Below are positions 24,541 to 53,100 of a stretch of DNA of 64,000 bases, one piece after another. Location: contig CAZSKK010000002.1 of the NCBI GenBank assembly GCA_964607415.1, positions 158,380 through 222,379 of the forward strand, given 5' to 3'. The notes below the pieces were generated by a model. That model searched no databases, was not told the origin of the DNA, and saw only the letters and a list, made by a program, of their open reading frames with translations. Position 1 is the stretch's first letter. Each line of letters begins with the position of its first letter. A program made the position numbers and the translations under genes. The DNA comes from an uncultured Candidatus Saccharibacteria bacterium. GTDB taxonomy: Bacteria; Patescibacteriota; Dojkabacteria; J137.

Positions 24541-26565
24541 ATGACTAATTTAGAATTTTCAACCTATATAACCTTCTTTATAGCTTTTGCTCTACTGGCT
24601 TTAGCTTTCGACTTACTATTTATTGGAAAGTTCCTTTACAAAGTGGTCAAAAAACGACACTTTAAAATTAGCTTCAAAAGCAAAAAATTATGGTTGAAGA
24701 TTTTGGTTTTCCTGTTATTTAACATTGCAATTCCAGGTGCAATTACTTATGTAGCATATCAAAAATACGAAAAGACAACTCCAACAATTACAAAATCAAC
24801 GCCATCAGGTGAAGGAGTTTGGTCCAGTTATTCAAAGCCTTTAGAAGTTGAATTCAATGTGCCTGTAAGCACTGTGAGGCTTTCTCCTAAAATAAATCCT
24901 ACTCTTGCCGGTGAATGGAAATGGGAACCTTACTATGGAACGCATGCACTAACAACTAAGGGTAAGTTCTACCCAAATGAAAGTTTATTCCCTGGGCAAA
25001 GAGTTGTTGTTTACATAACAGGAATCAGGCGAGCAAAGCATAATGAAAATCATGAAGCTGGGTTTGTATTTGATTCAGTTAAACTACCTGAAATTAATGT
25101 CTCAGACCCATTTAATAAATCTAAGGATGTTTCTTTAGAAACAAACATAGATTTGTTTTTAAATAAAAAAGATGAAAACTTACAAAACTGGAAATTTGAA
25201 TTTTCGCCAAAAATCGACTTCGAGGTCAGAACAATAAGCGAAACGCAATTTCAAATAGACCCAGCACTACCGTTTAATCAAAGTGAGAAGTACACACTTT
25301 ATGTTTCAAGACAAGCTAAAAGAGTTAACCTTGAAAACAAAGAGACAATAGAAGAGGATGGATACGAAGTTGTTAATAGGATTGAATTTGAAACACCTAA
25401 AGAGCCGCTTGTTAAAAGTTTTTCTCCAAAAGGTACTGGCGTAAAACAAGATGCTAAGATTAGAATTCGTTTTGAAGTACCAATGATTAGAGAGAACGTG
25501 GAGACATTATTTAAAATCACTCCAAGCGTTGAAGGTACTTTTGGATGGGAGGATGATAGAATCCTTAATTTTACACCCAATACCCTACTTCCAAAGGAAA
25601 CTTCTTATAAAGTTTCATTTCCTGAAGGTCTAGAAAGCCAAGGTGGTGGTGTTTCTGCCAAAGAAATTAGTTTTGAATTTGTAACAATTGGCGCAATACA
25701 ATTGCAATCATCTAGTCCTGCAAATGCTGCAACTAGAGTTAATGAATCTACAGAAATTAAAATAACTTTTGACCAAGAAGTTGATCAAACTTCCGCTCAA
25801 TCAAATTTTACGATATCTCCAAATATTGGAGGTAATTTTAGATGGGAAGGCAATACAATGATTTTTGACCCAAATAACAATTTGAATTTCAGCACAACCT
25901 ATACTGTTTCTCTTCAACCTGGAATTAAGTCGATTTATGGAATTGATAGCAGGGACAAATTTAACTTTAGTTTTACAACCAGATCAAACCAGGTGACTAT
26001 TTCTCTACCTATTTTTTATCAACCTCAGCCTTCATTCTCTTGTAATATTTATGCAACCAGAATGGGACTTGCATGGAAAGGTTACAACCTGGATGCAACA
26101 GCTATTATCGCTGAATTAGGCTATAACGATCAAAATATTAATGGGCAATGGCAAGGAAACCCAAACACACAATATGTTGGAACATATGATGGAAGTTGGG
26201 GATACGGTGTACACTGGAATCCAGTAAAAAGATTATTTGATAACAGAGGCCTAACGACCACCTTAAACGTAGGTTGGAACACGAGAGATCTTGCAAGAAC
26301 AATAGAAAACGGCAATCCCGTTATCATTTGGCGATATAATGGTGTTAGTGCAGATTATAACCTGAATTGGGTTGCGGCTGATGGTACCTATGTAAATGCA
26401 ATTAATGGACAACACGGTGGAGTTATTACAGGGTACAGAGGTACAAGTGACAATCCTACACAATTTCAAATTAATGATCCTTGGTATGGAATAATCTGGA
26501 TGGATGCCGGGGTATTTGATTACTATTGGTCTCGCTTAAATCGAGTTGGGTTGGTAATATATTAG
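24541..26565 (+). CDS. Surface protein: TM anchor, tandem bacterial Ig-like domains and C-terminal C39-like cysteine peptidase domain
   Basis: Repeated Ig-like blocks (NFTISPNIGGNFRWEGNTMIFDP...TYTVSL). The C-terminus has CNIYATRMGLAWKGY...HGGVITGY...NDPWYG, which resembles the Peptidase_C39_2 Cys/His/Asp arrangement. Confidence 0.5.
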   Translation: MTNLEFSTYITFFIAFALLALAFDLLFIGKFLYKVVKKRHFKISFKSKKLWLKILVFLLFNIAIPGAITYVAYQKYEKTTPTITKSTPSGEGVWSSYSKPLEVEFNVPVSTVRLSPKINPTLAGEWKWEPYYGTHALTTKGKFYPNESLFPGQRVVVYITGIRRAKHNENHEAGFVFDSVKLPEINVSDPFNKSKDVSLETNIDLFLNKKDENLQNWKFEFSPKIDFEVRTISETQFQIDPALPFNQSEKYTLYVSRQAKRVNLENKETIEEDGYEVVNRIEFETPKEPLVKSFSPKGTGVKQDAKIRIRFEVPMIRENVETLFKITPSVEGTFGWEDDRILNFTPNTLLPKETSYKVSFPEGLESQGGGVSAKEISFEFVTIGAIQLQSSSPANAATRVNESTEIKITFDQEVDQTSAQSNFTISPNIGGNFRWEGNTMIFDPNNNLNFSTTYTVSLQPGIKSIYGIDSRDKFNFSFTTRSNQVTISLPIFYQPQPSFSCNIYATRMGLAWKGYNLDATAIIAELGYNDQNINGQWQGNPNTQYVGTYDGSWGYGVHWNPVKRLFDNRGLTTTLNVGWNTRDLARTIENGNPVIIWRYNGVSADYNLNWVAADGTYVNAINGQHGGVITGYRGTSDNPTQFQINDPWYGIIWMDAGVFDYYWSRLNRVGLVIY

Positions 26566-26761
26566 AGCATATTAAATAGATTTCCTCTCCCCGAGAATGC
26601 ACGTTGTGCATTCGAGTGCAGCTGATTAGCTCCATTCGACAGCATAATATGCTGTCTCAGGATTAAGGTGAGGGTTTATACCGAGTTGGTGCATAACCTC
26701 ACCCTCCCCTCTCCTAATAGGAGAGGGATTTTGGAGATAATCTTAAATCATTTTTTTAATC

Positions 26762-28189: not shown

Positions 28190-28410
28190 AATCAGTTAAC
28201 GCATTGAAGGAGCAATCACTCCGGAGCAAAGAGCAGAACAGCCAAAGAGCAATAGAGATGAAGAGCAAGCTTAATAGCTCTAAAACTCTCAACCTCTTAA
28301 GCTTATTAGACCTCTTCGGGTAGCCCGAAATAGCTATAAAATTAAGTGCTTGGCAACTTCGCCAGGAATTAGGGTGGTAACACGGTAAACTTCATATCGT
28401 CCCTTCTATA
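28190..28410 (+). promoter_or_regulatory. T-box-like leader RNA upstream of ileS (Ile specifier candidate AUCA)
   Basis: AATTAGGGTGGTAACACGG at 28367-28385 closely resembles the T-box consensus AAUUAGGGUGGNACCGCGG. AUCA lies in a hairpin loop about 150 nt upstream, and an AGAGA element sits at 28251. It is located 5' of an aminoacyl-tRNA synthetase gene. Confidence 0.5.
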
Positions 28411-28563: not shown

Positions 28564-31542
28564 ATGTTCAGCAAACCAAACCCAAAGCAGAATTTCTTTG
28601 ATCTAGAGCAACAAATTTTAAACTGGTGGAAGGAGCAACAGATTCTAGAAAAATCGATTAACCAACGACCAGACGATCAGTCTAAAACATTCTACGATGG
28701 TCCTATTACTGCCAATGGTGAGCCTCATCACGGGCATATGCTTACGTTTGCAATGAAAGATATTATTCCAAGATACTGGACAATGAAAGGCTATAAGGTC
28801 AGTAGAAGTTTAGGATGGGACTGTCAAGGTATTCCTGTTGAATATGAAGTTGAAAAAAAATTGGGTTTTACTGAAAAAAAAGATATTGAAAAGTACGGCG
28901 TTGCAGCTTTTAATCAACTTTGTAGAGAATCAGTTGAAAAATATAGAGGAAATATCATTGAACTTGAAGAACTGATGGGTAGACTTACAAACTCTGATGA
29001 AGAGTTTGCAACAATGGATAGGGATTATATTGAATCAGTATGGTGGTCGTTGAGTGAACTTTATAAAAAAGGCCTCCTTTACGAAGGATTTAAAGTTGTT
29101 CCATACTCAACAAGAGCTGGAACTACGCTCTCAAACGCAGAAGTTGCTTTAGGAGGATATAAGCCTTTTGTTGATCCCGCAATCACTGTTGAATTTCCTT
29201 TAAAGGATGATCCTAAAACAATATTACTTGCTTGGACAACAACACCCTGGACAATACCTTCAAACCTAGGGCTTGCTGTCGGTAAAGATATTAAATATGT
29301 GAAAGTGAAAAGCCAGGTGCCTGATAATACTTACATTGTTGCAAAAGATTTGATAAAACAAGTATTTAAAGATGATCCAGTAGAAATTATTGGAGAAGTG
29401 GCAGTGGGTGAACTGGTAGGTAAGGAATATACTCCACCTTTCGATTTTTATGCTGGAAGAAAAAATGTCCATAAAATTTACGAAGGTTTCCATGTAACTA
29501 CTGATTCGGGTACAGGAATAGTTCATCTTGCGCCATATGGTGCTGAAGATAATGAAATATTTCAAAAAGTCGGCATTGAAAGCTTCGATTATTTAGATGA
29601 GCAAGGTGATTTTATTTCTACAGTTCCAATGTATGCTGGAATTAATTATAGAGATGCTAATCCAAAAATAATTGAAGATCTAAAAGCCAAAGATGCATTA
29701 TTTAGAAATGAAGAATATGAGCACGAAATGCCTATGTGTTGGAGAACAAACACTCCACTTATTTATAAACCAATAACCTCTTGGTTTATTGCAATGAGCA
29801 GCTTAAGAAAAGAACTGGTTGATAATAATAATAAAATCAACTGGATACCATCTCATGTAAAAGACGGTAGATTTGGAAACTGGCTTTCTGAAATTAAAGA
29901 TTGGGGAATATCCAGATTAAGATACTGGGGCACCCCTTTACCAGTCTGGAAATCAGCAAGCGGAAAAATAATCTTCATAGGTTCATTTGAAGAAATTGAA
30001 AAATATACTGGCAAAAAAGTAGAAGACCCCCATAAGCCGTTTATTGATGATTTTGTGTTCGAGTATGAAGGAGAAACTTACAAAAGAATTCCAGATGTAA
30101 TTGATGTTTGGTACGATTCAGGTGCTATGCCATTTGCAAGATTTCACTATCCTTTTGAAAACGAAGAAAAATTTAAGAAAAAATTCCCTGCACAATACAT
30201 TGCCGAAGGGGTTGACCAAACAAGAGGCTGGTTCTACTCTCTTCATGCTATAGGAACTGCACTTATGGATAGCCCAGCATTTGAAAATGTTGTTATGAAC
30301 GGATTTGTATTGGACGACAAAGGTGCTAAATTAAGTAAGAGCAAGAAAAATTATACAGCACCAAAACCGCTAATTGAAAAATTTGGAGCCGACACAATTA
30401 GACTAAACTTCTTTTCAACCGCAATCTCTGCAGGAGAAGATACAACTGTTAGTGAAAAAACTCTAAATATTCAAAAGCAAGAAACTATCCTTCCACTTTG
30501 GAACATCTATTCTTTCTTTACAACCTATGCAAACTTGCATAACTGGGAACCCCGCTCTGAGCTTTGTTACAACAATCGTGAAAACAAAGCCGATGAATTT
30601 CCTTGGGATCACATGCCCTTTAATGATTTGGAAAATAATTTAGACGCATGGATTTTATTACTCCTTCAAGAAACAATAAAAGAAGTAACCAGTGCTTTGG
30701 ACAAATACGAAATACCAAGGGCAACAAGAAGCGCAAAATCATTTATAGACGATCTTTCTAAATGGTATATAAGAAGAAATAGAGATAGATTTGCAAGTGG
30801 TGATACTGATGCCCTAGATACACTTTATTATGTACTTGTAGAGTGCTTAAAGCTATTTGCACCAATAACACCATTTATAACTGAATACATTTACAAAGAG
30901 CTTGTAGCTAGTCAATTAAGCGATATGCCTGAATCAGTGCATTTAACAAACTACCCTACTTCAGACACACAATTTATTGAACAGTACTCAGCTTTACTTG
31001 AAGAGATGAGAATTATTAGAGAAGTTTGTGAAATGGGCCACTCTTTAAGAACTACAAATCAACTTAAAGTAAGACAACCACTTGCGAAAGTTGAGTTAAT
31101 TAATACTAATGTTGCAGTTCCTGCTTTCTCAGATTGGATGAAAAAGATATTAATGGATGAACTTAACGTAAAAGATGTTGTAGAAGTCATGCAATTTTCA
31201 TCAAAAAAAGTTATAAATACAGAAAATGCTGCCTTAAGCATAAAAGTAGGATTAGACACGGAAATCACACAGGATCTTTTAGATGAAGGCCTTGTGAGGG
31301 ATATAACTAGAGAAATTCAAAGCATTAGAAAGAACATGAGTCTTGATATTGGTGATAAAATAACTTTGAGCTATCAAACAAATGATGTAGACTTAAATAG
31401 AATTCTTGAGAATTTTAAGGAAACTATTTTGAATAGTATTAATGCAGCTGAAATTTTGAATGTAGAAAGTATTAAACAAGACACTAAACAGGAAATAGAT
31501 TTAAATGGCAAAAAAGTTACAATTAATTTAGTTAAAAAGTAA
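28564..31542 (+). CDS. ileS: Isoleucyl-tRNA synthetase (type 2)
   Basis: HIGH motif PHHGHML, KMSKS motif KLSKSKKN, editing domain, 992 aa. Confidence 0.9.
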   Translation: MFSKPNPKQNFFDLEQQILNWWKEQQILEKSINQRPDDQSKTFYDGPITANGEPHHGHMLTFAMKDIIPRYWTMKGYKVSRSLGWDCQGIPVEYEVEKKLGFTEKKDIEKYGVAAFNQLCRESVEKYRGNIIELEELMGRLTNSDEEFATMDRDYIESVWWSLSELYKKGLLYEGFKVVPYSTRAGTTLSNAEVALGGYKPFVDPAITVEFPLKDDPKTILLAWTTTPWTIPSNLGLAVGKDIKYVKVKSQVPDNTYIVAKDLIKQVFKDDPVEIIGEVAVGELVGKEYTPPFDFYAGRKNVHKIYEGFHVTTDSGTGIVHLAPYGAEDNEIFQKVGIESFDYLDEQGDFISTVPMYAGINYRDANPKIIEDLKAKDALFRNEEYEHEMPMCWRTNTPLIYKPITSWFIAMSSLRKELVDNNNKINWIPSHVKDGRFGNWLSEIKDWGISRLRYWGTPLPVWKSASGKIIFIGSFEEIEKYTGKKVEDPHKPFIDDFVFEYEGETYKRIPDVIDVWYDSGAMPFARFHYPFENEEKFKKKFPAQYIAEGVDQTRGWFYSLHAIGTALMDSPAFENVVMNGFVLDDKGAKLSKSKKNYTAPKPLIEKFGADTIRLNFFSTAISAGEDTTVSEKTLNIQKQETILPLWNIYSFFTTYANLHNWEPRSELCYNNRENKADEFPWDHMPFNDLENNLDAWILLLLQETIKEVTSALDKYEIPRATRSAKSFIDDLSKWYIRRNRDRFASGDTDALDTLYYVLVECLKLFAPITPFITEYIYKELVASQLSDMPESVHLTNYPTSDTQFIEQYSALLEEMRIIREVCEMGHSLRTTNQLKVRQPLAKVELINTNVAVPAFSDWMKKILMDELNVKDVVEVMQFSSKKVINTENAALSIKVGLDTEITQDLLDEGLVRDITREIQSIRKNMSLDIGDKITLSYQTNDVDLNRILENFKETILNSINAAEILNVESIKQDTKQEIDLNGKKVTINLVKK

Positions 31543-45697: not shown

Positions 45698-45775
45698 ATT
45701 TTAAAGCTACAAAAAATGGCCATGAAGAAAATACTTTCTTCATGGCCATAATTTACTATTATTCCTATTTATAAA

Positions 45776-49063: not shown

Positions 49064-50101
49064 ATGGCATACGAATTTAGAGAAAACCTCGATTCAAAAA
49101 TTCTGGATAGTTTTATGGAGGAATGGTCAAAAAAAACCAATCCTCCTGGCGTTACTTTTATACAATCAAGCAATTGGGCAGCTTTTCAGAAGGCTTTAAA
49201 TCGAGAAGTGTTGCAAGTAGGAATCTATCATAACAATGAGCTTGTTGGTGCTTTTGTTGGAATTGTTAATCTAGCAAAAAGAGGTAAATATCTCTATGTC
49301 CGAAATGGTCCTGTTTTGGATTGGTCAAATAAAGAACTTGTTGACAAGACCATAACCTTTTTGAAAACCTGGGCACAGAAAAAGCATTTGTGGTTTATCC
49401 GAATAAGCCCTCTGATCAAATTTGTAGACGCTAAAAACTTAAATAGCTACCGCTTTCCTGACTTTCAAATGAACGATGTAGATGCCTTAGACACTTGGAT
49501 TAGCCCTATTGCAGGCAAATCTGAAAACGAGCTGCTTGCTAGTTTCGATAAAAAAACAAGGTACTCTGTAAATAAAACTTATAAAGACGGCATTACCTCA
49601 ACTATTTCGAAGAATCCTAAGGACCTTGAATTATTCTATCCTATTTATCTTGATACAATAAATCGCCATAAATGGGTAGGATACCCTCTTTCTTTTATAC
49701 AAAAAGAATTTGAAGCCTTTAGTGAAGACAACCGAGCAAGTTTAGTTATTTGTAAGCTTAAGGATGAGCTAATTGCCGCGGGAATTTTTATACATTATGC
49801 AGATCAAACTTATTATCACTTTGGTGCTACTTCATCAGAGTACTCAAAGTTTTCTCCCGCATATCAAATGATCTGGGAAGCCATGAAAGAAACAATAAGA
49901 AGAGATATTAAATTCTTCAATTTTTGGGGAATAGCTCCTACTAACAAGCCTAAGCATCCGTGGCAAGGACTGTCTTCATTTAAGAAAAAATTTCCTGGAA
50001 TGGAAGTAAACTGGAATGGTGCTAAAGATATTCCTGTTTCAAAAAAATATTGGCTTACTCACTTCTACGACAAGTTTAATAAGATCAGAAAAGGATATTG
50101 A
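49064..50101 (+). CDS. FemAB-family peptidoglycan branch peptidyltransferase
   Basis: 345 aa. FemAB-like N-terminal GNAT-fold region (WAAFQKALNREVLQVGIYHNNELVGAFVG) and a C-terminal HYADQTYYHFGATS block. Confidence 0.65.
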   Translation: MAYEFRENLDSKILDSFMEEWSKKTNPPGVTFIQSSNWAAFQKALNREVLQVGIYHNNELVGAFVGIVNLAKRGKYLYVRNGPVLDWSNKELVDKTITFLKTWAQKKHLWFIRISPLIKFVDAKNLNSYRFPDFQMNDVDALDTWISPIAGKSENELLASFDKKTRYSVNKTYKDGITSTISKNPKDLELFYPIYLDTINRHKWVGYPLSFIQKEFEAFSEDNRASLVICKLKDELIAAGIFIHYADQTYYHFGATSSEYSKFSPAYQMIWEAMKETIRRDIKFFNFWGIAPTNKPKHPWQGLSSFKKKFPGMEVNWNGAKDIPVSKKYWLTHFYDKFNKIRKGY

Positions 50102-50148
50102 CATTGTATACAATTTAGCTAAAATATACATAATTACAAATTATTTTT

Positions 50149-50538
50149 ATGTATAAAACTAAAGAAGGCAAAGTTTGCGCATCTCTAACAGAGGTAAAAA
50201 ACAGAACTGGTGATATTTTTGACATGGTAGATGAATTTGGCGAAGTAATTTTAACTTCTTACAATAAGGAAAGGTATAAAATTACCAAAATTGATCTTTC
50301 CTCTACACTTGAAATTAAGAGCGAGAGTAAGACTAAGGATGAAAACAGGATCCAAGCCGAAAACACTCCTAAGTACGAACCTACAACTTTTGTAGACAAT
50401 AGCAAAGAAGAAATAAGCTCAGAAGATACCAACGAAATCAATGACGAAAACCTGATCTCTAATGATTTTAAGCTTTGGGATAGAGAAAACAAGCTTGAAA
50501 AAGAGTTTGCTGAAAACGCAAAAAAAGCTCTGCAGTAA
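50149..50538 (+). CDS. Phd/YefM-like antitoxin with long acidic C-terminal tail
   Basis: N-terminal SLTEVKNRTGDIFDMVDEFGEVILTSYNKERYKI is the Phd/YefM fold pattern. Positioned 34 bp upstream of the PIN gene. Confidence 0.4.
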   Translation: MYKTKEGKVCASLTEVKNRTGDIFDMVDEFGEVILTSYNKERYKITKIDLSSTLEIKSESKTKDENRIQAENTPKYEPTTFVDNSKEEISSEDTNEINDENLISNDFKLWDRENKLEKEFAENAKKALQ

Positions 50539-50572
50539 ATCAAACTAATATTATTTTATATTAACTCAAAAA

Positions 50573-50947
50573 ATGAAAGACACAATAATGGTTGACACAG
50601 ACATAATTGTTGAATACTTAAAAACAGGTAAGGGACTATTACCAACAGCGTACGAAAAATATAAAATGGTAATTAGCTCTGTGAACTATATTGAATTACT
50701 TGCCAGCAAGACTTTTACCGATAGCGACCTTGAAAAAGAAGTTTTAGAATTTGTTGAAAAGTATTTTGAAGTTTTGGATGTTAATCAAGAAGTTTCTGAT
50801 TTAGCTGGAAAGCTTTTAAGAGAGAACGATTTAACTCTATCTACAGCCATAATTGCAGCTTCTGCAATAACAAATAAGGTATCACTACTTACAGAATCTA
50901 AGGATAAATATAAAGGGATTGAAAATCTTGAATTTGTGAGTTTGTAG
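50573..50947 (+). CDS. PIN-domain ribonuclease (VapC-like toxin)
   Basis: N-terminal MVDTDIIVEYL (acidic D4-type residue) and later TAIIAASA...SLLTESKD are PIN-fold conserved acidic positions. 124 aa. Confidence 0.55.
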   Translation: MKDTIMVDTDIIVEYLKTGKGLLPTAYEKYKMVISSVNYIELLASKTFTDSDLEKEVLEFVEKYFEVLDVNQEVSDLAGKLLRENDLTLSTAIIAASAITNKVSLLTESKDKYKGIENLEFVSL

Positions 50948-50954
50948 AAAGAAT

Positions 50955-51028
50955 TTCGGAGAGACAGGACTCGAACCTGCAACCCCACGCTCCCAAAGCG
51001 TGTATTCTAGCCAATTGAACTACTCTCC
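50955..51028 (-). tRNA. tRNA-Pro (anticodon TGG)
   Basis: Reverse complement folds as CGGAGAG-TA-GTTC-AATTGGCTA-GAAT-A-CACGC-TTTGGGA-GCGTG-GGGTT-GCAGG-TTCGAGT-CCTGT-CTCTCCG-A. C1:G72 is typical of bacterial tRNA-Pro. Confidence 0.75.
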
Positions 51029-51553
51029 GCTTAGTTGTTCGAAAAGATTTTACCACATAAATACCTATTCTTGTATATATCTTTTAGGTTCAACACTTAC
51101 AAAGATTGCATAAATCATTTTTTTTGGCATTCTTGCAATCATAATTATTTGAATAGCTTGACTAAACTGTGAAACATTTCTCATTATTATATTTAGACTA
51201 AGAAATCCTATAAATAATACGTGATTTTGTTGTTTCCTTTAAACTTATTCCAGAGGCATGACTTGGACTGCCAGCTACCATGCGCTTTGGAGCTAACCCC
51301 TTCTTATCATTTGTCCGAATCGCTGCCAGTAAGTAATCGGACGCAGTTAGTTCTAATGTAACCAACAATATACCTTCTTTTAATCTCAAGCTTTTTAAAC
51401 AAATTGCCACTTCCCCACTTTGAAAATTTAGGCGCCTAAAATCTCAATCCAAAGGCTATCAAGTATAACTAACATTTGCAAGAAAAGGTTTGAGATTAAA
51501 AGCGACAATTTATCATAAAGTATTAAAAATAAGCACAGGCCGAAAATTACTAC

Positions 51554-51583
51554 TTGCGCATTGTATGCATACATGTGTATAAT
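51554..51583 (+). promoter_or_regulatory. Sigma-70-like promoter (TTGCGC-18-TATAAT) with embedded 12-bp perfect palindrome TGTATGCATACA
   Basis: The -35 and -10 hexamers are 18 bp apart. The palindrome at 51562-51573 lies in the spacer, about 40 bp upstream of the NDT-like-RHH paralog 2 start. Confidence 0.4.
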
Positions 51584-51615
51584 ATACACAATTAAGTTAT
51601 TATACCCAACTACAA

Positions 51616-52200
51616 ATGAAAATACTTTACATTTGCTCTATTGACCAATTTAAAACAAACAGAGAAAGGTACAACCTTATTCGCAGAATATTGCTAGCCA
51701 CCGGGCACGAGCTTACCTTTGATTGGCTTACAAAAATAGAAAATAACCTTGGGCAGTACTCTAAACTAAACCTTTCCAGACTTTTCGACAGCACTATAGC
51801 AGCCATAAAAGAATCTGATGCAGTTGTCATAGAAGGCACTATACCAAGCTTTGAGGCAGGATTCATTGCTAATTTCGCAGCTAAAAATCGTAAGTCAGTG
51901 TTGATTTTAATAGAAGGAAATGAAGGGGTTGATTTTTCAAGCTTAAATATAATTGAAACCGAACACATTTTTATAAAAAACTATAACAAGGAAAATATTG
52001 AAAACCTACTTTCAGAATTTTTAAAAGATAACGCTGGAGAACCTTCTTATAGATTTAATATAATCCTTGGCAGAAGGCAGAAGAACTACTTAAACTGGGC
52101 TGATAGATTTTACAGAAAAAGCAAATCGGAACTGATCAGGGAGATAATTGATGATAAGGCAAATAATGACGTGAACTATCTACGTATTGGAGGTAAATGA
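51616..52200 (+). CDS. NDT-like (SLOG-type) domain fused to C-terminal ribbon-helix-helix (paralog 2 of 3)
   Basis: KILYICSID...DAVVIEGTIPSFEAGFIANFAAKNRKSVLIL is the NDT-like core. C-terminal RFNIILGRRQKNYLNWADRFYRKSKSELIREIIDD is the RHH. Confidence 0.5.
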   Translation: MKILYICSIDQFKTNRERYNLIRRILLATGHELTFDWLTKIENNLGQYSKLNLSRLFDSTIAAIKESDAVVIEGTIPSFEAGFIANFAAKNRKSVLILIEGNEGVDFSSLNIIETEHIFIKNYNKENIENLLSEFLKDNAGEPSYRFNIILGRRQKNYLNWADRFYRKSKSELIREIIDDKANNDVNYLRIGGK

Positions 52201-52425
52201 TACGATTTGAAAGGGAATTTTCGTAACAATATATAAGCTTAGTTGATTATTTGTGCAGTTTACAAGGTCATTCTTTTGTCATCCTGAGGGAAATCGAAGG
52301 ATAGACAAAATACTTAGCAGATGTATGGTTCGAGTTCCCTCACCATGACATCTGATGATAAATCCCGAGCTCCCATAAAATTCTCAGCAACTAGCTATTA
52401 GCTCTTCACCAGCATGCTTTTTTGC

Positions 52426-53100
52426 TCACTTCCTGTTCTCAGCTTTCCACTTTTTAACTTCTGCATGATCACCCGAAAGAAGAATTTCAGGTATTCCCCA
52501 CTCTTCTCCTTCATCCGTTTTGAATACTGCAGGTCTTGTGTATTGGGGATATTCAAAAAGTGTATGATCTTCATTAAAACTAGTTTCTTCTATTAATGAT
52601 TCTTCGTTTCCAAGAACACCTGGAATTAATCTTGTGATTGAATCTACAAGTATCATGGAAGCTAGTTCGCCTCCTGACAAAATATATTCCCCTACGCTAA
52701 CTTCACTATCAATCAAGTGCTCTACAACTCTATGATCTATCCCTTCGTATCTACCACATATGATTACTATACGTTCTAAATCCTGTGATGAATTTTGAGC
52801 AATAGTTTGATTCCACTTAATACCTTTAGCACTAGTTAAATACACTTTTGTTTTGGGATCTCTGCTTGGATAAACTCCTAATTCTTTTAGAGCTTTATAA
52901 ATAGGCTCAATCTTAATCAACATCCCAGCTCCACCACTGAAAGGCTTATCATCAACTGTACGTCTTTTGTCTGTTGTCCACCTTCTTAAATCATGAATAT
53001 GGATGTCAATCTTTTTTGCATCAGCGGCTCTTTTAATAATACTATGGTTTAAGTATTCAAAAGAATCTGGAAGTACTGTTATAATATCAAACTTAATCAT
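52426..53100 (-). CDS. trmD: tRNA (guanine37-N1)-methyltransferase
   Basis: MIKFDIITVLPDSFEYLNHSIIKRA plus the SPOUT knot region. Confidence 0.85.
   Translation of the reverse strand: MIKFDIITVLPDSFEYLNHSIIKRAADAKKIDIHIHDLRRWTTDKRRTVDDKPFSGGAGMLIKIEPIYKALKELGVYPSRDPKTKVYLTSAKGIKWNQTIAQNSSQDLERIVIICGRYEGIDHRVVEHLIDSEVSVGEYILSGGELASMILVDSITRLIPGVLGNEESLIEETSFNEDHTLFEYPQYTRPAVFKTDEGEEWGIPEILLSGDHAEVKKWKAENRK

What the first reader, a model, noticed from the sequence alone, without database searches (positions are those of the whole stretch)
51236..51370. GC-rich non-coding island upstream of tRNA-Pro: candidate structured RNA
In a roughly 30% GC genome, this ~135-nt stretch (ccagaggcatgacttggactgccagctaccatgcgctttggagctaaccccttc...gtccgaatcgctgccagtaagtaatcggacgcag) is close to 50% GC. 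It contains stem candidates (GTCCGA...TCGGAC, CCA-aagcgc-TGG) and the 3'-terminal GGUAGCUGGCAG on the minus strand, which is reminiscent of 4.5S/SRP RNA ends. The only ORF across it, 51198-51410 (-), has an Ala/Leu/Ser/Gly-rich composition typical of spurious translation of GC-rich RNA genes. It lies on the same strand as, and 5' of, tRNA-Pro. That arrangement is common for SRP RNA, RNase P RNA or 6S RNA co-transcribed with tRNAs.
Basis: seen in the sequence. Interest (0 to 1): 0.5.

Follow-up and report, generated by a model that had tools for sequence, protein, structure and literature searches.

The report
GC-rich hairpin spacer, not SRP RNA
The GC-rich patch next to tRNA-Pro is real and non-coding, but it is not an SRP, 6S, RNase P or tRNA-type RNA: it is a fast-evolving spacer with two hairpins, and only one short hairpin is conserved in related genomes, where it travels with the neighbouring regulator gene rather than with the tRNA.

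Summary
Positions 51247-51346 are 51% GC in a 33% GC window, which puts them in the top 0.014% of 100-nt windows. The stretch is non-coding and forms two hairpins.

The proposed identity does not hold. Rfam gives no hit for SRP, 6S, RNase P, tmRNA or tRNA, even when only 161 nt are searched at E<=10. A diverged T-box elsewhere in the same window is still found at E=3e-10. The minus strand, which carries the tRNA, folds no better than shuffled sequence (z=-0.24). The plus strand folds slightly better (z about -2).

tRNA-Pro has its own extended -10 promoter 18-26 nt upstream of the mature 5' end. That promoter and the tRNA are inverted together in sister genomes.

Neither the 70-aa ORF nor the 46-aa ORF has any homologue.

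I compared the window with eight other sequence variants of this locus from a Candidatus Dojkabacteria (CPR) genus. Neutral sites between the lineages are near saturation. Only the outer arms of hairpin 2 survive (TGTCCGAAT...AATCGGAC, 17 of 17 bases). Hairpin 1, which holds the 4.5S-like 11-mer, is specific to the window's lineage.

The conserved hairpin lies about 300 nt upstream of an RHH-domain gene and marks the left edge of that gene's conserved upstream block. I read it as a cis-acting hairpin or inverted repeat, with its function inferred rather than shown. Interest is low.

The parts
51247..51346 (.). Core of the GC-rich island (51% GC over 100 nt)
   Evidence: It is in the top 0.014% of 100-nt windows in the 64-kb window.
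51248..51292 (+). Hairpin 1 (UUCCAGAGGCAUG..CAUGCGCUUUGGA). It is specific to the window's lineage. Its minus strand holds the 4.5S-like 11-mer GTAGCTGGCAG.
   Evidence: plus strand -18.5 kcal/mol, z=-2.5 (2 of 200 shuffles fold as well); minus strand z=+0.43. It has no sequence counterpart in L005, L018, L020 or L022. The 11-mer match to E. coli ffs is isolated.
51312..51343 (.). Hairpin 2, an inverted repeat. The outer arms TGTCCGAAT (51312-51320) and AATCGGAC (51335-51342) are conserved. The interior is degenerate in the window.
   Evidence: It is unique in the window. The arms are 17/17 identical to L005, L018, L020, L021 and L022, while 4-fold sites are only 37-69% identical. In relatives it forms a 15-bp hairpin of -18.7 kcal/mol, z=-5.9, against -10.4 kcal/mol, z=-1.9 in the window. 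One inner pair runs A-U / G.U / G-C across relatives.
51198..51410 (-). 70-aa ORF, judged spurious
   Evidence: no Pfam hit, not called as a gene, no ORF counterpart in L005, and 0 homologues in 1.84e9 proteins.
51221..51361 (+). 46-aa ORF, judged spurious
   Evidence: no family and no homologue. The reading frame relative to the conserved TGTCCGAAT differs from that of the overlapping L005 ORF.
50956..51029 (-). tRNA-Pro(UGG)
   Evidence: 63.3 bits. It is inverted relative to L005, L007, L012, L013 and L015-L019, and in the same orientation as in L020-L022.
51047..51055 (-). Extended -10 promoter of tRNA-Pro (TGGTAAAAT), 18-26 nt upstream of the mature 5' end
   Evidence: Read directly. L005 has TGATAAAAT at the same distance in the opposite orientation. 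Window 50946-51080 is 97% identical to L020. This is an inferred promoter and has not been mapped.
51169..51175 (.). Conserved block GTGAAAC, the left anchor of homology with relatives
   Evidence: It is invariant in all six aligned sequences. It lies 137-141 nt upstream of hairpin 2/B in both the window and L005.
51432..51458 (.). Conserved block GCGCCTAAAATCTCAATCCAAAGGCTA in the upstream region of the RHH gene
   Evidence: 21 of 27 positions are identical to L005, L018 and L020, against a neutral identity of about 45%.
51554..51590 (+). Promoter of the RHH gene: -35 TTGCGC (51554-51559), 18-nt spacer, -10 TATAAT (51578-51583), embedded in the palindrome TGTGTATAATATACACA (51574-51590)
   Evidence: GTGTATAAT sits at -37 to -54 in 7 of 8 homologous loci. 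I infer that this is the promoter plus an autoregulatory operator.
51616..52200 (+). 194-aa gene. The C-terminal part looks like a ribbon-helix-helix (RHH) domain and the N-terminal part weakly resembles a nucleoside deoxyribosyltransferase. This is the gene with which the conserved hairpin is syntenic.
   Evidence: (8 homologues only). The RHH assignment comes from the conserved FNIIL-ERKQKNYLDWADRFY..SKSELIR segment. It is inferred and has no Pfam hit.

Best explanation
The island is a non-coding spacer in a rearrangement-prone region of a Candidatus Dojkabacteria (CPR) genome. It lies between tRNA-Pro(UGG) and a small gene for an RHH-domain protein. It consists of two hairpin-forming inverted repeats.

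Only the right-hand hairpin is functionally constrained. Its outer arms are TGTCCGAAT and AATCGGAC. It belongs to the roughly 300-nt conserved upstream region of the RHH gene and not to the tRNA.

I think it most likely acts in cis as a hairpin or inverted-repeat signal. It could be a barrier to transcription reading in from the upstream phd-PIN operon and the antisense side of the tRNA. Alternatively it could be a sequence-specific binding site for a protein.

Hairpin 1, and with it most of the GC excess and the 4.5S-like 11-mer, is specific to this lineage and has no detectable conservation.

Shown: composition, hairpins, lack of coding potential, lack of any Rfam family, synteny, and conservation of the arms.
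Inferred: the cis-acting role and which of the two mechanisms applies.
For: Composition and hairpins.

No coding potential.

No known RNA family. The T-box hit at E=3e-10 in the same window serves as a positive control.

Synteny:
- The locus murE-femAB-phd-PIN-tRNA-Pro-[variable]-RHH-trmD recurs in L005, L007, L014 and L018.
- The left neighbour of the spacer changes: NTP_transf_6 in L005 and L018, the inverted tRNA in the window and L020-L022.
- The hairpin stays 300-330 nt upstream of the RHH gene throughout.

Constraint:
- Four-fold degenerate sites between the window and L005 are only 37-69% identical.
- The spacer averages about 45% identity.
- Both arms are nevertheless 17/17 identical.

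Hairpin rather than rigid double-stranded site:
- The spacer between the outer arms is 14 nt in the window and 16-17 nt in relatives.
- One inner pair goes A-U, G.U, G-C across relatives.

Boundary: within the L005 group, three-way identity jumps from about 55% to about 90% exactly at the hairpin and stays high through the RHH gene.

Independence of the tRNA: it has its own extended -10 promoter, which is 97% conserved with L020 and inverted together with the tRNA.
Against: - There are no expression data.
- No U-tract follows either hairpin, and the terminator scan found no site in the window or in L005. A classical intrinsic terminator is therefore not supported.
- The outer stem never varies, so it offers no covariation. 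Conservation of sequence and conservation of structure cannot be separated.
- The strand is unresolved. One pair favours the plus strand (G.U in L020) and one favours the minus strand (C.A on plus in L022).
- The inner stem is lost in the window, so the element may be decaying there.
- Hairpin A of the relatives is not consistently formed (it is absent in L018) and has no sequence similarity to hairpin 1.
- The comparison rests on very few lineages. One is the window. The other is the group L005, L018, L020 and L022, whose members are closely related to each other.
Confidence: 0.4

Rival explanations
1. The island is a novel, fast-evolving small structured RNA on the plus strand, either an independent sRNA or a far-upstream leader. 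It would have a 5' hairpin, a linker, and hairpin 2/B as its 3' stem-loop, and would be restricted to this Dojkabacteria genus.
For: - Both window hairpins fold better on the plus strand (z=-2.5 and -1.9, against +0.4 and -1.25 on the minus strand). The whole island gives z=-2.1 on the plus strand.
- The sister lineage has a milder GC rise (42-45%) at the same position and a two-hairpin layout. Hairpin A lies 63 nt and hairpin B 141 nt after the GTGAAAC block, against 75 and 137 nt in the window.
- In an AT-rich genome, a neutral spacer at saturating divergence would be expected to be AT-rich in both lineages.
- There is a promoter-like site TTGACT-18-CATTAT at 51158-51187 on the plus strand.
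Against: - The z-scores are marginal.
- The promoter-like site is no better than those found in shuffled sequence (4 found against 3.1 expected) and is not conserved in L005.
- There is no U-tract terminator.
- Hairpin A is not maintained in L018, and RNAalifold does not recover it.
- Hairpin 1 and hairpin A share no sequence.
- No covariation beyond one pair has been demonstrated.
- Exact-match scans with 21- and 22-mers from the island found nothing in viral or metagenome contigs.
Confidence: 0.2
2. Most of the island has no function. It would be a scar or recently acquired DNA left by the rearrangement that inverted tRNA-Pro and removed the NTP_transf_6 cargo gene, and it has not yet drifted to the genome's AT-rich composition.
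For: - The slot next to tRNA-Pro holds different cargo in relatives: NTP_transf_6 in L005, L012, L013 and L015-L019, a 231-aa gene in L007, and DUF6602 plus a 306-aa gene in L009.
- The tRNA is inverted in some relatives.
- Hairpin 1 has no homologue anywhere.
- Divergence across the locus is mosaic: PIN and RHH have 4-fold identity of 0.66-0.69, against 0.37-0.45 for FemAB and TrmD.
Against: - The window's spacer is collinear with that of relatives between the GTGAAAC block and hairpin 2 and has the same length (137 against 141 nt). This argues against a simple insertion.
- No donor sequence was found.
- The breakpoints of the NTP_transf_6 polymorphism (L005 2726-2841 and 3446) lie about 230 nt to the left of the hairpin and not in the island.
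Confidence: 0.25
3. The island is the decayed remnant of a second proline tRNA gene, tRNA-Pro(CGG). That gene sits upstream of the RHH gene in the more distant relatives L007 and L009.
For: - L007 and L009 carry tRNA-Pro(CGG) between tRNA-Pro(UGG) or its cargo and the RHH gene, and it forms the GC peak of their upstream regions.
- An alignment of each whole tRNA against the best-matching part of the island's minus strand gives, for tRNA-Pro(CGG), z=3.0 and p=0.009. For tRNA-Pro(UGG) it gives z=2.5. The control tRNA-Asn gives z about 1.
Against: - A covariance model built from four tRNA-Pro genes scores the island at only 1.1 bits, E=7.8.
- ARAGORN finds nothing down to 85% of its default thresholds, and at 80% or lower it finds only implausible intron-containing calls.
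- The Rfam tRNA model is silent.
- The p-value does not survive correction for 10 tests.
- The plus strand, which is the orientation of the gene in L007 and L009, shows no similarity.
- At saturating neutral divergence, a pseudogene should no longer be recognisable.
Confidence: 0.07
4. The island is an SRP (4.5S), 6S or RNase P RNA gene on the minus strand, co-transcribed with tRNA-Pro.
For: - An exact 11-mer GTAGCTGGCAG is shared with E. coli ffs.
- The island is GC-rich and lies on the 5' side of a tRNA on the same strand.
Against: - No Rfam hit at any threshold.
- The SRP domain IV motifs (GGAAGCAG, AGCAGC) are absent on both strands.
- The minus-strand fold is indistinguishable from shuffles.
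- The 11-mer lies in hairpin 1, which is not conserved in any relative. A housekeeping RNA would be conserved.
- The tRNA has its own proximal promoter.
Confidence: 0.01
5. The island encodes a small protein: the 70-aa minus-strand ORF, the 46-aa plus-strand ORF, or a 16-21-aa peptide starting at (A/T)TGTCCGAA.
For: - Open frames exist on both strands.
- Between the window and L005, a few differences inside the hairpin look synonymous in one frame (MSE.SL.V.NRT).
Against: - There are 0 homologues for the 70-aa ORF in 1.84e9 proteins and none for the 46-aa ORF.
- There is no Pfam hit.
- The longer overlapping ORFs read TGTCCGAAT in different frames in the window and L005.
- Indels among relatives are not multiples of three.
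- No Shine-Dalgarno sequence is present.
- The ATG is replaced by TTG in the window.
Confidence: 0.02

Closest known systems
Bacterial small SRP RNA (4.5S, Rfam RF00169)
   Same: It is GC-rich relative to the genome. It shares an exact 11-mer, GTAGCTGGCAG, with the 3' part of E. coli ffs. It lies near a tRNA gene.
   Different: There is no covariance-model match and no domain IV motif. There is no long end-to-end hairpin on the minus strand. It is not conserved even in the sister species.
Intrinsic-terminator or insulator hairpins, such as the 15-bp palindrome at 45716-45749 in this window
   Same: The form in relatives (hairpin B) is a near-perfect 15-bp stem with a 3-nt loop, -18.7 kcal/mol. 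That is the same shape as the one clear terminator in the window. It sits between transcription units.
   Different: No U-tract directly follows the stem on either strand. The flanking units are divergent, so only read-through or antisense transcription could be stopped. The window's copy has lost its inner stem.
Inverted-repeat operators or protein-recognised hairpins (RHH or HTH repressor sites, REP/RAYT-type or Rep-type hairpins)
   Same: The sequence of the outer arms is strictly conserved while the interior varies in sequence and length. It is adjacent to a gene for an RHH-type DNA-binding protein.
   Different: The arms are 14-17 nt apart and the spacing differs between lineages. There is a single copy per locus and no repeat family in the window. 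No recombinase, Rep or RAYT gene is nearby. The RHH gene already has a separate palindrome over its own -10 box.
GC-rich islands that mark structured RNA genes in AT-rich genomes. The screening principle is from my own knowledge (Klein, Misulovin and Eddy 2002). The in-window example is the ileS T-box leader.
   Same: The compositional signature is the same. The T-box at 28195-28407 lies in another GC-rich intergenic island picked up by the same GC scan.
   Different: The T-box is recognised by its covariance model at E=3e-10 and sits directly upstream of its target gene. The island matches no model and has no obvious target.

Membership tests
Bacterial small SRP RNA (4.5S) | Match to the covariance model, including the helix 8 / domain IV loops and the GNRA-type tetraloop | tested here: not met
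   There is no RF00169 match at the gathering threshold, at E<=10 on 801 nt or on 161 nt. The motifs GGAAGCAG and AGCAGC are absent on both strands.
Bacterial small SRP RNA (4.5S) | The 5' and 3' ends pair into one long hairpin | tested here: not met
   Minus-strand MFE z=-0.24. The predicted structures are unstable, with the centroid at -16 against an MFE of -33 kcal/mol.
Bacterial small SRP RNA (4.5S) | Conservation in related genomes, as expected for an essential housekeeping RNA | tested here: not met
   The 4.5S-like segment (hairpin 1) has no counterpart in L005, L018, L020 or L022.
6S RNA | A rod of about 180 nt with a central bubble, and a match to the covariance model | tested here: not met
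   There is no Rfam match and no extended rod on either strand.
RNase P RNA / tmRNA | A match to the covariance model, or ARAGORN detection for tmRNA, and a size of 300-400 nt | tested here: not met
   The GC-rich part is only about 100 nt.
tRNA or tRNA pseudogene | A cloverleaf detectable by a tRNA model | tested here: not met
   ARAGORN finds nothing down to 85% of its thresholds. The custom tRNA-Pro model scores 1.1 bits, E=7.8. The Rfam tRNA model is silent.
tRNA or tRNA pseudogene | Residual sequence similarity to the tRNA-Pro(CGG) found at this position in L007 and L009 | tested here: inconclusive
   Minus strand z=3.0, p=0.009, uncorrected for 10 tests. The plus strand shows none.
Intrinsic (Rho-independent) terminator | A GC-rich stem immediately followed by a U-tract | tested here: not met
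   There are 0 terminator-like sites in window 50900-51700 and 0 in L005 3400-4010. In L005 the nearest U-run starts 8 nt after the stem.
Conserved structured RNA (generic) | Base pairs maintained by compensatory changes across homologues | tested here: inconclusive
   In hairpin 2/B, 7 outer pairs are invariant and one inner pair runs A-U / G.U / G-C. There are too few independent lineages. Hairpin 1 cannot be aligned.
Protein-coding small gene | A conserved reading frame or homologues | tested here: not met
Protein-binding inverted repeat or operator | Binding by a specific protein | not testable with these tools
   Only the sequence signature is available: conserved arms and a variable interior.

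The most novel reading that the evidence does not exclude
The island and its counterpart in the sister lineage are a genus-specific, rapidly evolving two-hairpin RNA on the plus strand. Its 3' hairpin (TGTCCGAAU...AAUCGGAC) is the conserved functional core. It would be transcribed upstream of, and perhaps act on, the RHH regulator gene in a CPR bacterium. Almost no small RNAs have been described for this group (own knowledge).
Probability: 0.2. Interest if true: 0.35.

Novelty: new member of a known kind. Interest (0 to 1): 0.2.

Why it matters
The result removes a false lead. A GC-rich island next to a tRNA in an AT-rich CPR genome looks like a housekeeping RNA gene and even shares an 11-mer with 4.5S RNA, but it is not one.

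The result also illustrates a method. At saturating neutral divergence, only 17 nt of the island are constrained, and synteny assigns them to the neighbouring regulator gene.

If the conserved hairpin were shown to be an RNA or a protein-binding site, it would be a small addition to the very thin catalogue of regulatory elements in Dojkabacteria.

The tRNA-Pro slot with its inversion and cargo polymorphism, and the sub-threshold T-box upstream of ileS, are probably more useful by-products.

Tried and rejected
1. Remnant of the NTP_transf_6 gene that occupies the slot in relatives. tblastn and blastn found nothing.

2. Fragment of atpD or atpC. This was suggested by an exact 14-mer, TCATTTGTCCGAAT, found in the atpD gene of L006 and L008, and by the peptide-like similarity MSES..VFG. 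tblastn of AtpD and AtpC against the spacers of the window and L005 gave only noise (best E=0.015-0.3, not collinear). The window has no atp genes.

3. Wider conservation of the motif TCCGAAT upstream of all RHH homologues (L006, L008, L010, L011). By my estimate, a shared 7-9-mer among 620-nt AT-rich regions is within chance. The motif occurs 8 times in the window against 5.1 expected.

4. Repeat family or mobile element. There is no second copy in the window. There were no matches in phage or plasmid collections, in E. coli, or in viral or metagenome contigs with 21-22-mers. The hairpin pattern gave 16 viral hits. Ten of them are one unrelated 55%-GC phage gene and the rest are scattered.

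5. Inversion of the island between the window and L005. Neither orientation shows significant similarity to the left of hairpin 2.

6. Promoter scans. The hits are no more frequent than in shuffled sequence and are not conserved.

7. A search of metagenome contigs for more RHH-gene loci found none. The GTDB genome scan found one, L008, Ca. Dojkabacteria KatS3mg085.

Full report
OBSERVATION.
The window is 33.0% GC. Its core, 51247-51346, is 51% GC, a value reached by only 0.014% of 100-nt windows. The surrounding intergenic DNA is 23-30% GC.

The island lies in a 585-nt gene-free interval (51030-51615). On one side is tRNA-Pro(UGG) at 50956-51029 on the minus strand. On the other is a 194-aa gene at 51616-52200 on the plus strand.

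The stem GTCCGA...TCGGAC is at 51313-51342 and is unique in the window. None of 100 shuffles produced a match. GTAGCTGGCAG is identical to positions 92-102 of E. coli ffs, but nothing else aligns, and the SRP domain IV motifs are absent on both strands.

KNOWN RNA FAMILIES.
Rfam 15 finds only the two tRNAs of the window at the gathering threshold. With E<=10 and permissive filters it finds nothing credible in 50900-51700 or in the 161 nt of the island alone.

This negative result is meaningful. Another GC-rich intergenic island of the same window (28195-28407) is recognised as a T-box leader at 50.7 bits, E=3e-10, although that score is below the gathering score. It sits in front of an IleS-type class I tRNA synthetase gene. 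Diverged RNAs of this organism are thus still visible to the models.

The minus strand of the island folds no better than shuffled sequence (z=-0.24; hairpin 1 region z=+0.43). The plus strand is marginally better (z=-2.1). On the plus strand hairpin 1 (51248-51292) is -18.5 kcal/mol with z=-2.5, and hairpin 2 (51312-51343) is -10.4 kcal/mol with z=-1.9.

CODING POTENTIAL.
The 70-aa ORF has no Pfam hit and was never called as a gene in the public collection. It has no counterpart ORF in the sister genome and no homologue among 1.84 billion representative proteins. The 46-aa plus-strand ORF has no homologue either. The region is non-coding.

ORGANISM AND LOCUS.
Homologues of the flanking PIN toxin are annotated as Candidatus Dojkabacteria. 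The only GTDB species genome with a relative of the 194-aa protein is Ca. Dojkabacteria KatS3mg085.

The gene order is murE-like, femAB, phd-like, PIN, tRNA-Pro, a variable slot, the 194-aa gene, and trmD. The 194-aa protein has only eight relatives in 5.8 billion clusters. Its conserved C-terminal segment looks like a ribbon-helix-helix (RHH) domain. This is my inference, and Pfam does not confirm it.

Its promoter is clear and conserved: -35 TTGCGC, an 18-nt spacer, and -10 TATAAT. The -10 box sits inside the palindrome TGTGTATAATATACACA at 51574-51590, which is present in 7 of 8 homologous loci. The island, 270-370 nt upstream, is therefore not part of the mRNA made from that promoter.

THE tRNA IS AN INDEPENDENT UNIT.
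On the minus strand the tRNA is preceded by TGGTAAAAT (51055-51047), an extended -10 box 18-26 nt from the mature 5' end. In L005 the tRNA lies on the other strand with TGATAAAAT at the same distance.

The tRNA and this promoter are inverted as a unit between two groups. One group has the tRNA next to an NTP_transf_6 gene (L005, L012, L013, L015-L019). The other lacks that gene (the window and L020-L022).

Window 50946-51080 is 97% identical to L020. The island lies upstream of this promoter, so co-transcription with the tRNA is not needed and is not indicated.

COMPARATIVE ANALYSIS.
Contigs carrying exactly the window's proteins are identical across the spacer. Useful relatives came from protein-cluster look-ups. 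They are L005/L014, L018, L020/L021 and L022, which are 75-86% identical to each other in the spacer.

Between the window and L005, four-fold degenerate sites are 37-69% identical: FemAB 0.45, Phd 0.47, PIN 0.69, RHH 0.66 and TrmD 0.37. Neutral divergence is thus close to saturation. The spacer averages about 45% identity, as expected for unconstrained DNA.

Against that background a few blocks stand out:
- GTGAAAC at 51169-51175.
- The two arms of hairpin 2, TGTCCGAAT and AATCGGAC, which are 17/17 identical.
- A block at 51432-51458.
- The promoter region of the RHH gene.

GTGAAAC and hairpin 2 are 137 nt apart in the window and 141 nt apart in L005. The spacers are therefore collinear and were not replaced.

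Hairpin 1, which carries most of the GC excess and the 4.5S-like 11-mer, has no sequence counterpart. The relatives have a different hairpin A somewhat upstream. It is 7-8 bp long and is absent in L018. It is followed by a C/A-rich linker.

THE CONSERVED HAIRPIN.
In the relatives it is a near-perfect 15-bp stem with a 3-nt loop, -18.7 kcal/mol, z=-5.9. Across them one inner pair changes A-U (L005), G.U (L020) and G-C (L018).

The wobble intermediate pairs only on the plus strand. Another change, in L022, pairs only on the minus strand. The strand is therefore unresolved.

In the window the inner stem is lost through a 4-nt deletion and substitutions. Only the 7-bp outer stem remains.

The arms keep their sequence rather than co-varying, while the interior changes in sequence and length. 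The interior between the arms is 14 nt in the window and 16-17 nt in the relatives. This is the signature of a hairpin or inverted repeat that is read in a sequence-specific way.

Within the L005 group, three-way identity jumps from about 55% to about 90% exactly at this hairpin and stays high through the RHH gene. The hairpin is thus the left edge of the unit that evolves together with the RHH gene.

No U-tract follows it, and no terminator-like site is called. Canonical terminators are rare in this genome: 12 were found against 9.9 expected in 20 kb. The one clear terminator is a similar 15-bp palindrome.

INTERPRETATION.
I take the island to be a non-coding spacer with two hairpins. Only hairpin 2 is constrained, and it belongs to the upstream region of the RHH gene.

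The most likely role is a cis-acting hairpin or inverted repeat. It could be a barrier to transcription entering from the phd-PIN operon, or a protein-binding site. This step is inferred, and I put it at about 0.4.

The rivals are:
- A genus-specific plus-strand sRNA (0.2).
- A functionless rearrangement scar (0.25).
- A decayed tRNA-Pro(CGG), the gene that occupies this position in L007 and L009 (0.07). The minus strand shows z=3.0 similarity, but the covariance model gives only 1.1 bits.
- A small protein (0.02).

DEAD ENDS.
- Remnants of NTP_transf_6.
- An atpD fragment suggested by a 14-mer.
- A family-wide TCCGAAT motif, which is within chance.
- Repeats and mobile elements.

VERDICT.
The compositional signal is real. 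The proposed identity is wrong. The conserved core is a 32-nt hairpin of unknown but probably cis-regulatory role. Novelty and interest are low.

Noticed in passing
window 28195-28407 (+), upstream of 28564-31542: A diverged T-box leader (RF00230, 50.7 bits against a gathering score of 93, E=3e-10) lies in front of an IleS-type class I aminoacyl-tRNA synthetase gene. The default Rfam threshold misses it. It sits in another GC-rich intergenic island.
   Followed up: partly
window 50946-51085; L005 2714-3446; L020 596-790; L012, L013, L015-L019: tRNA-Pro(UGG) and its extended -10 promoter are inverted as a unit between close relatives. The inversion coincides with presence or absence of an NTP_transf_6 gene beside it. 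More distant relatives carry other cargo in the same slot: a 231-aa gene, DUF6602 plus a 306-aa gene, and patatin. The slot is a tRNA-adjacent variable hotspot.
   Followed up: partly
window 51554-51590: The palindrome TGTGTATAATATACACA overlaps the -10 box of the 194-aa RHH-like gene and is conserved in 7 of 8 homologous loci. It is probably an autoregulatory operator.
   Followed up: partly
window 51377-51396 / 51483-51502 and 51437-51448: A 20-nt inverted repeat (90% complementary, 86 nt apart) and three copies of the motif AATCTCAA lie between the island and the RHH promoter. One copy falls in a block conserved with relatives.
   Followed up: no
window 26585-26735: A cluster of four GC-rich hairpins (49.6% GC) lies just downstream of the Big_5 / Peptidase_C39 gene 24541-26565. 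The last hairpin has a T-run. There is no credible Rfam family (best hit csRNA, E=0.22).
   Followed up: partly
window 52253-52360: GC-rich hairpins lie between the convergent RHH gene and trmD (TGTCATCCT..AGGATAGACA and CAGATGT..ACATCTG). The second contains GGTTCGAGTTCC, which resembles a tRNA T-arm.
   Followed up: no
window 49064-53100 versus L005: Divergence is mosaic. Four-fold site identity is 0.66-0.69 for PIN and the RHH gene but 0.37-0.47 for FemAB, Phd and TrmD. This suggests recombination between lineages within the locus.
   Followed up: partly
L008 2374-2790 (Ca. Dojkabacteria KatS3mg085, AP024679.1): The reading frame that follows atpD, where atpC is expected, is interrupted by a stop codon in this complete MAG. 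This could be a frameshift, a pseudogene or a sequencing error.
   Followed up: no
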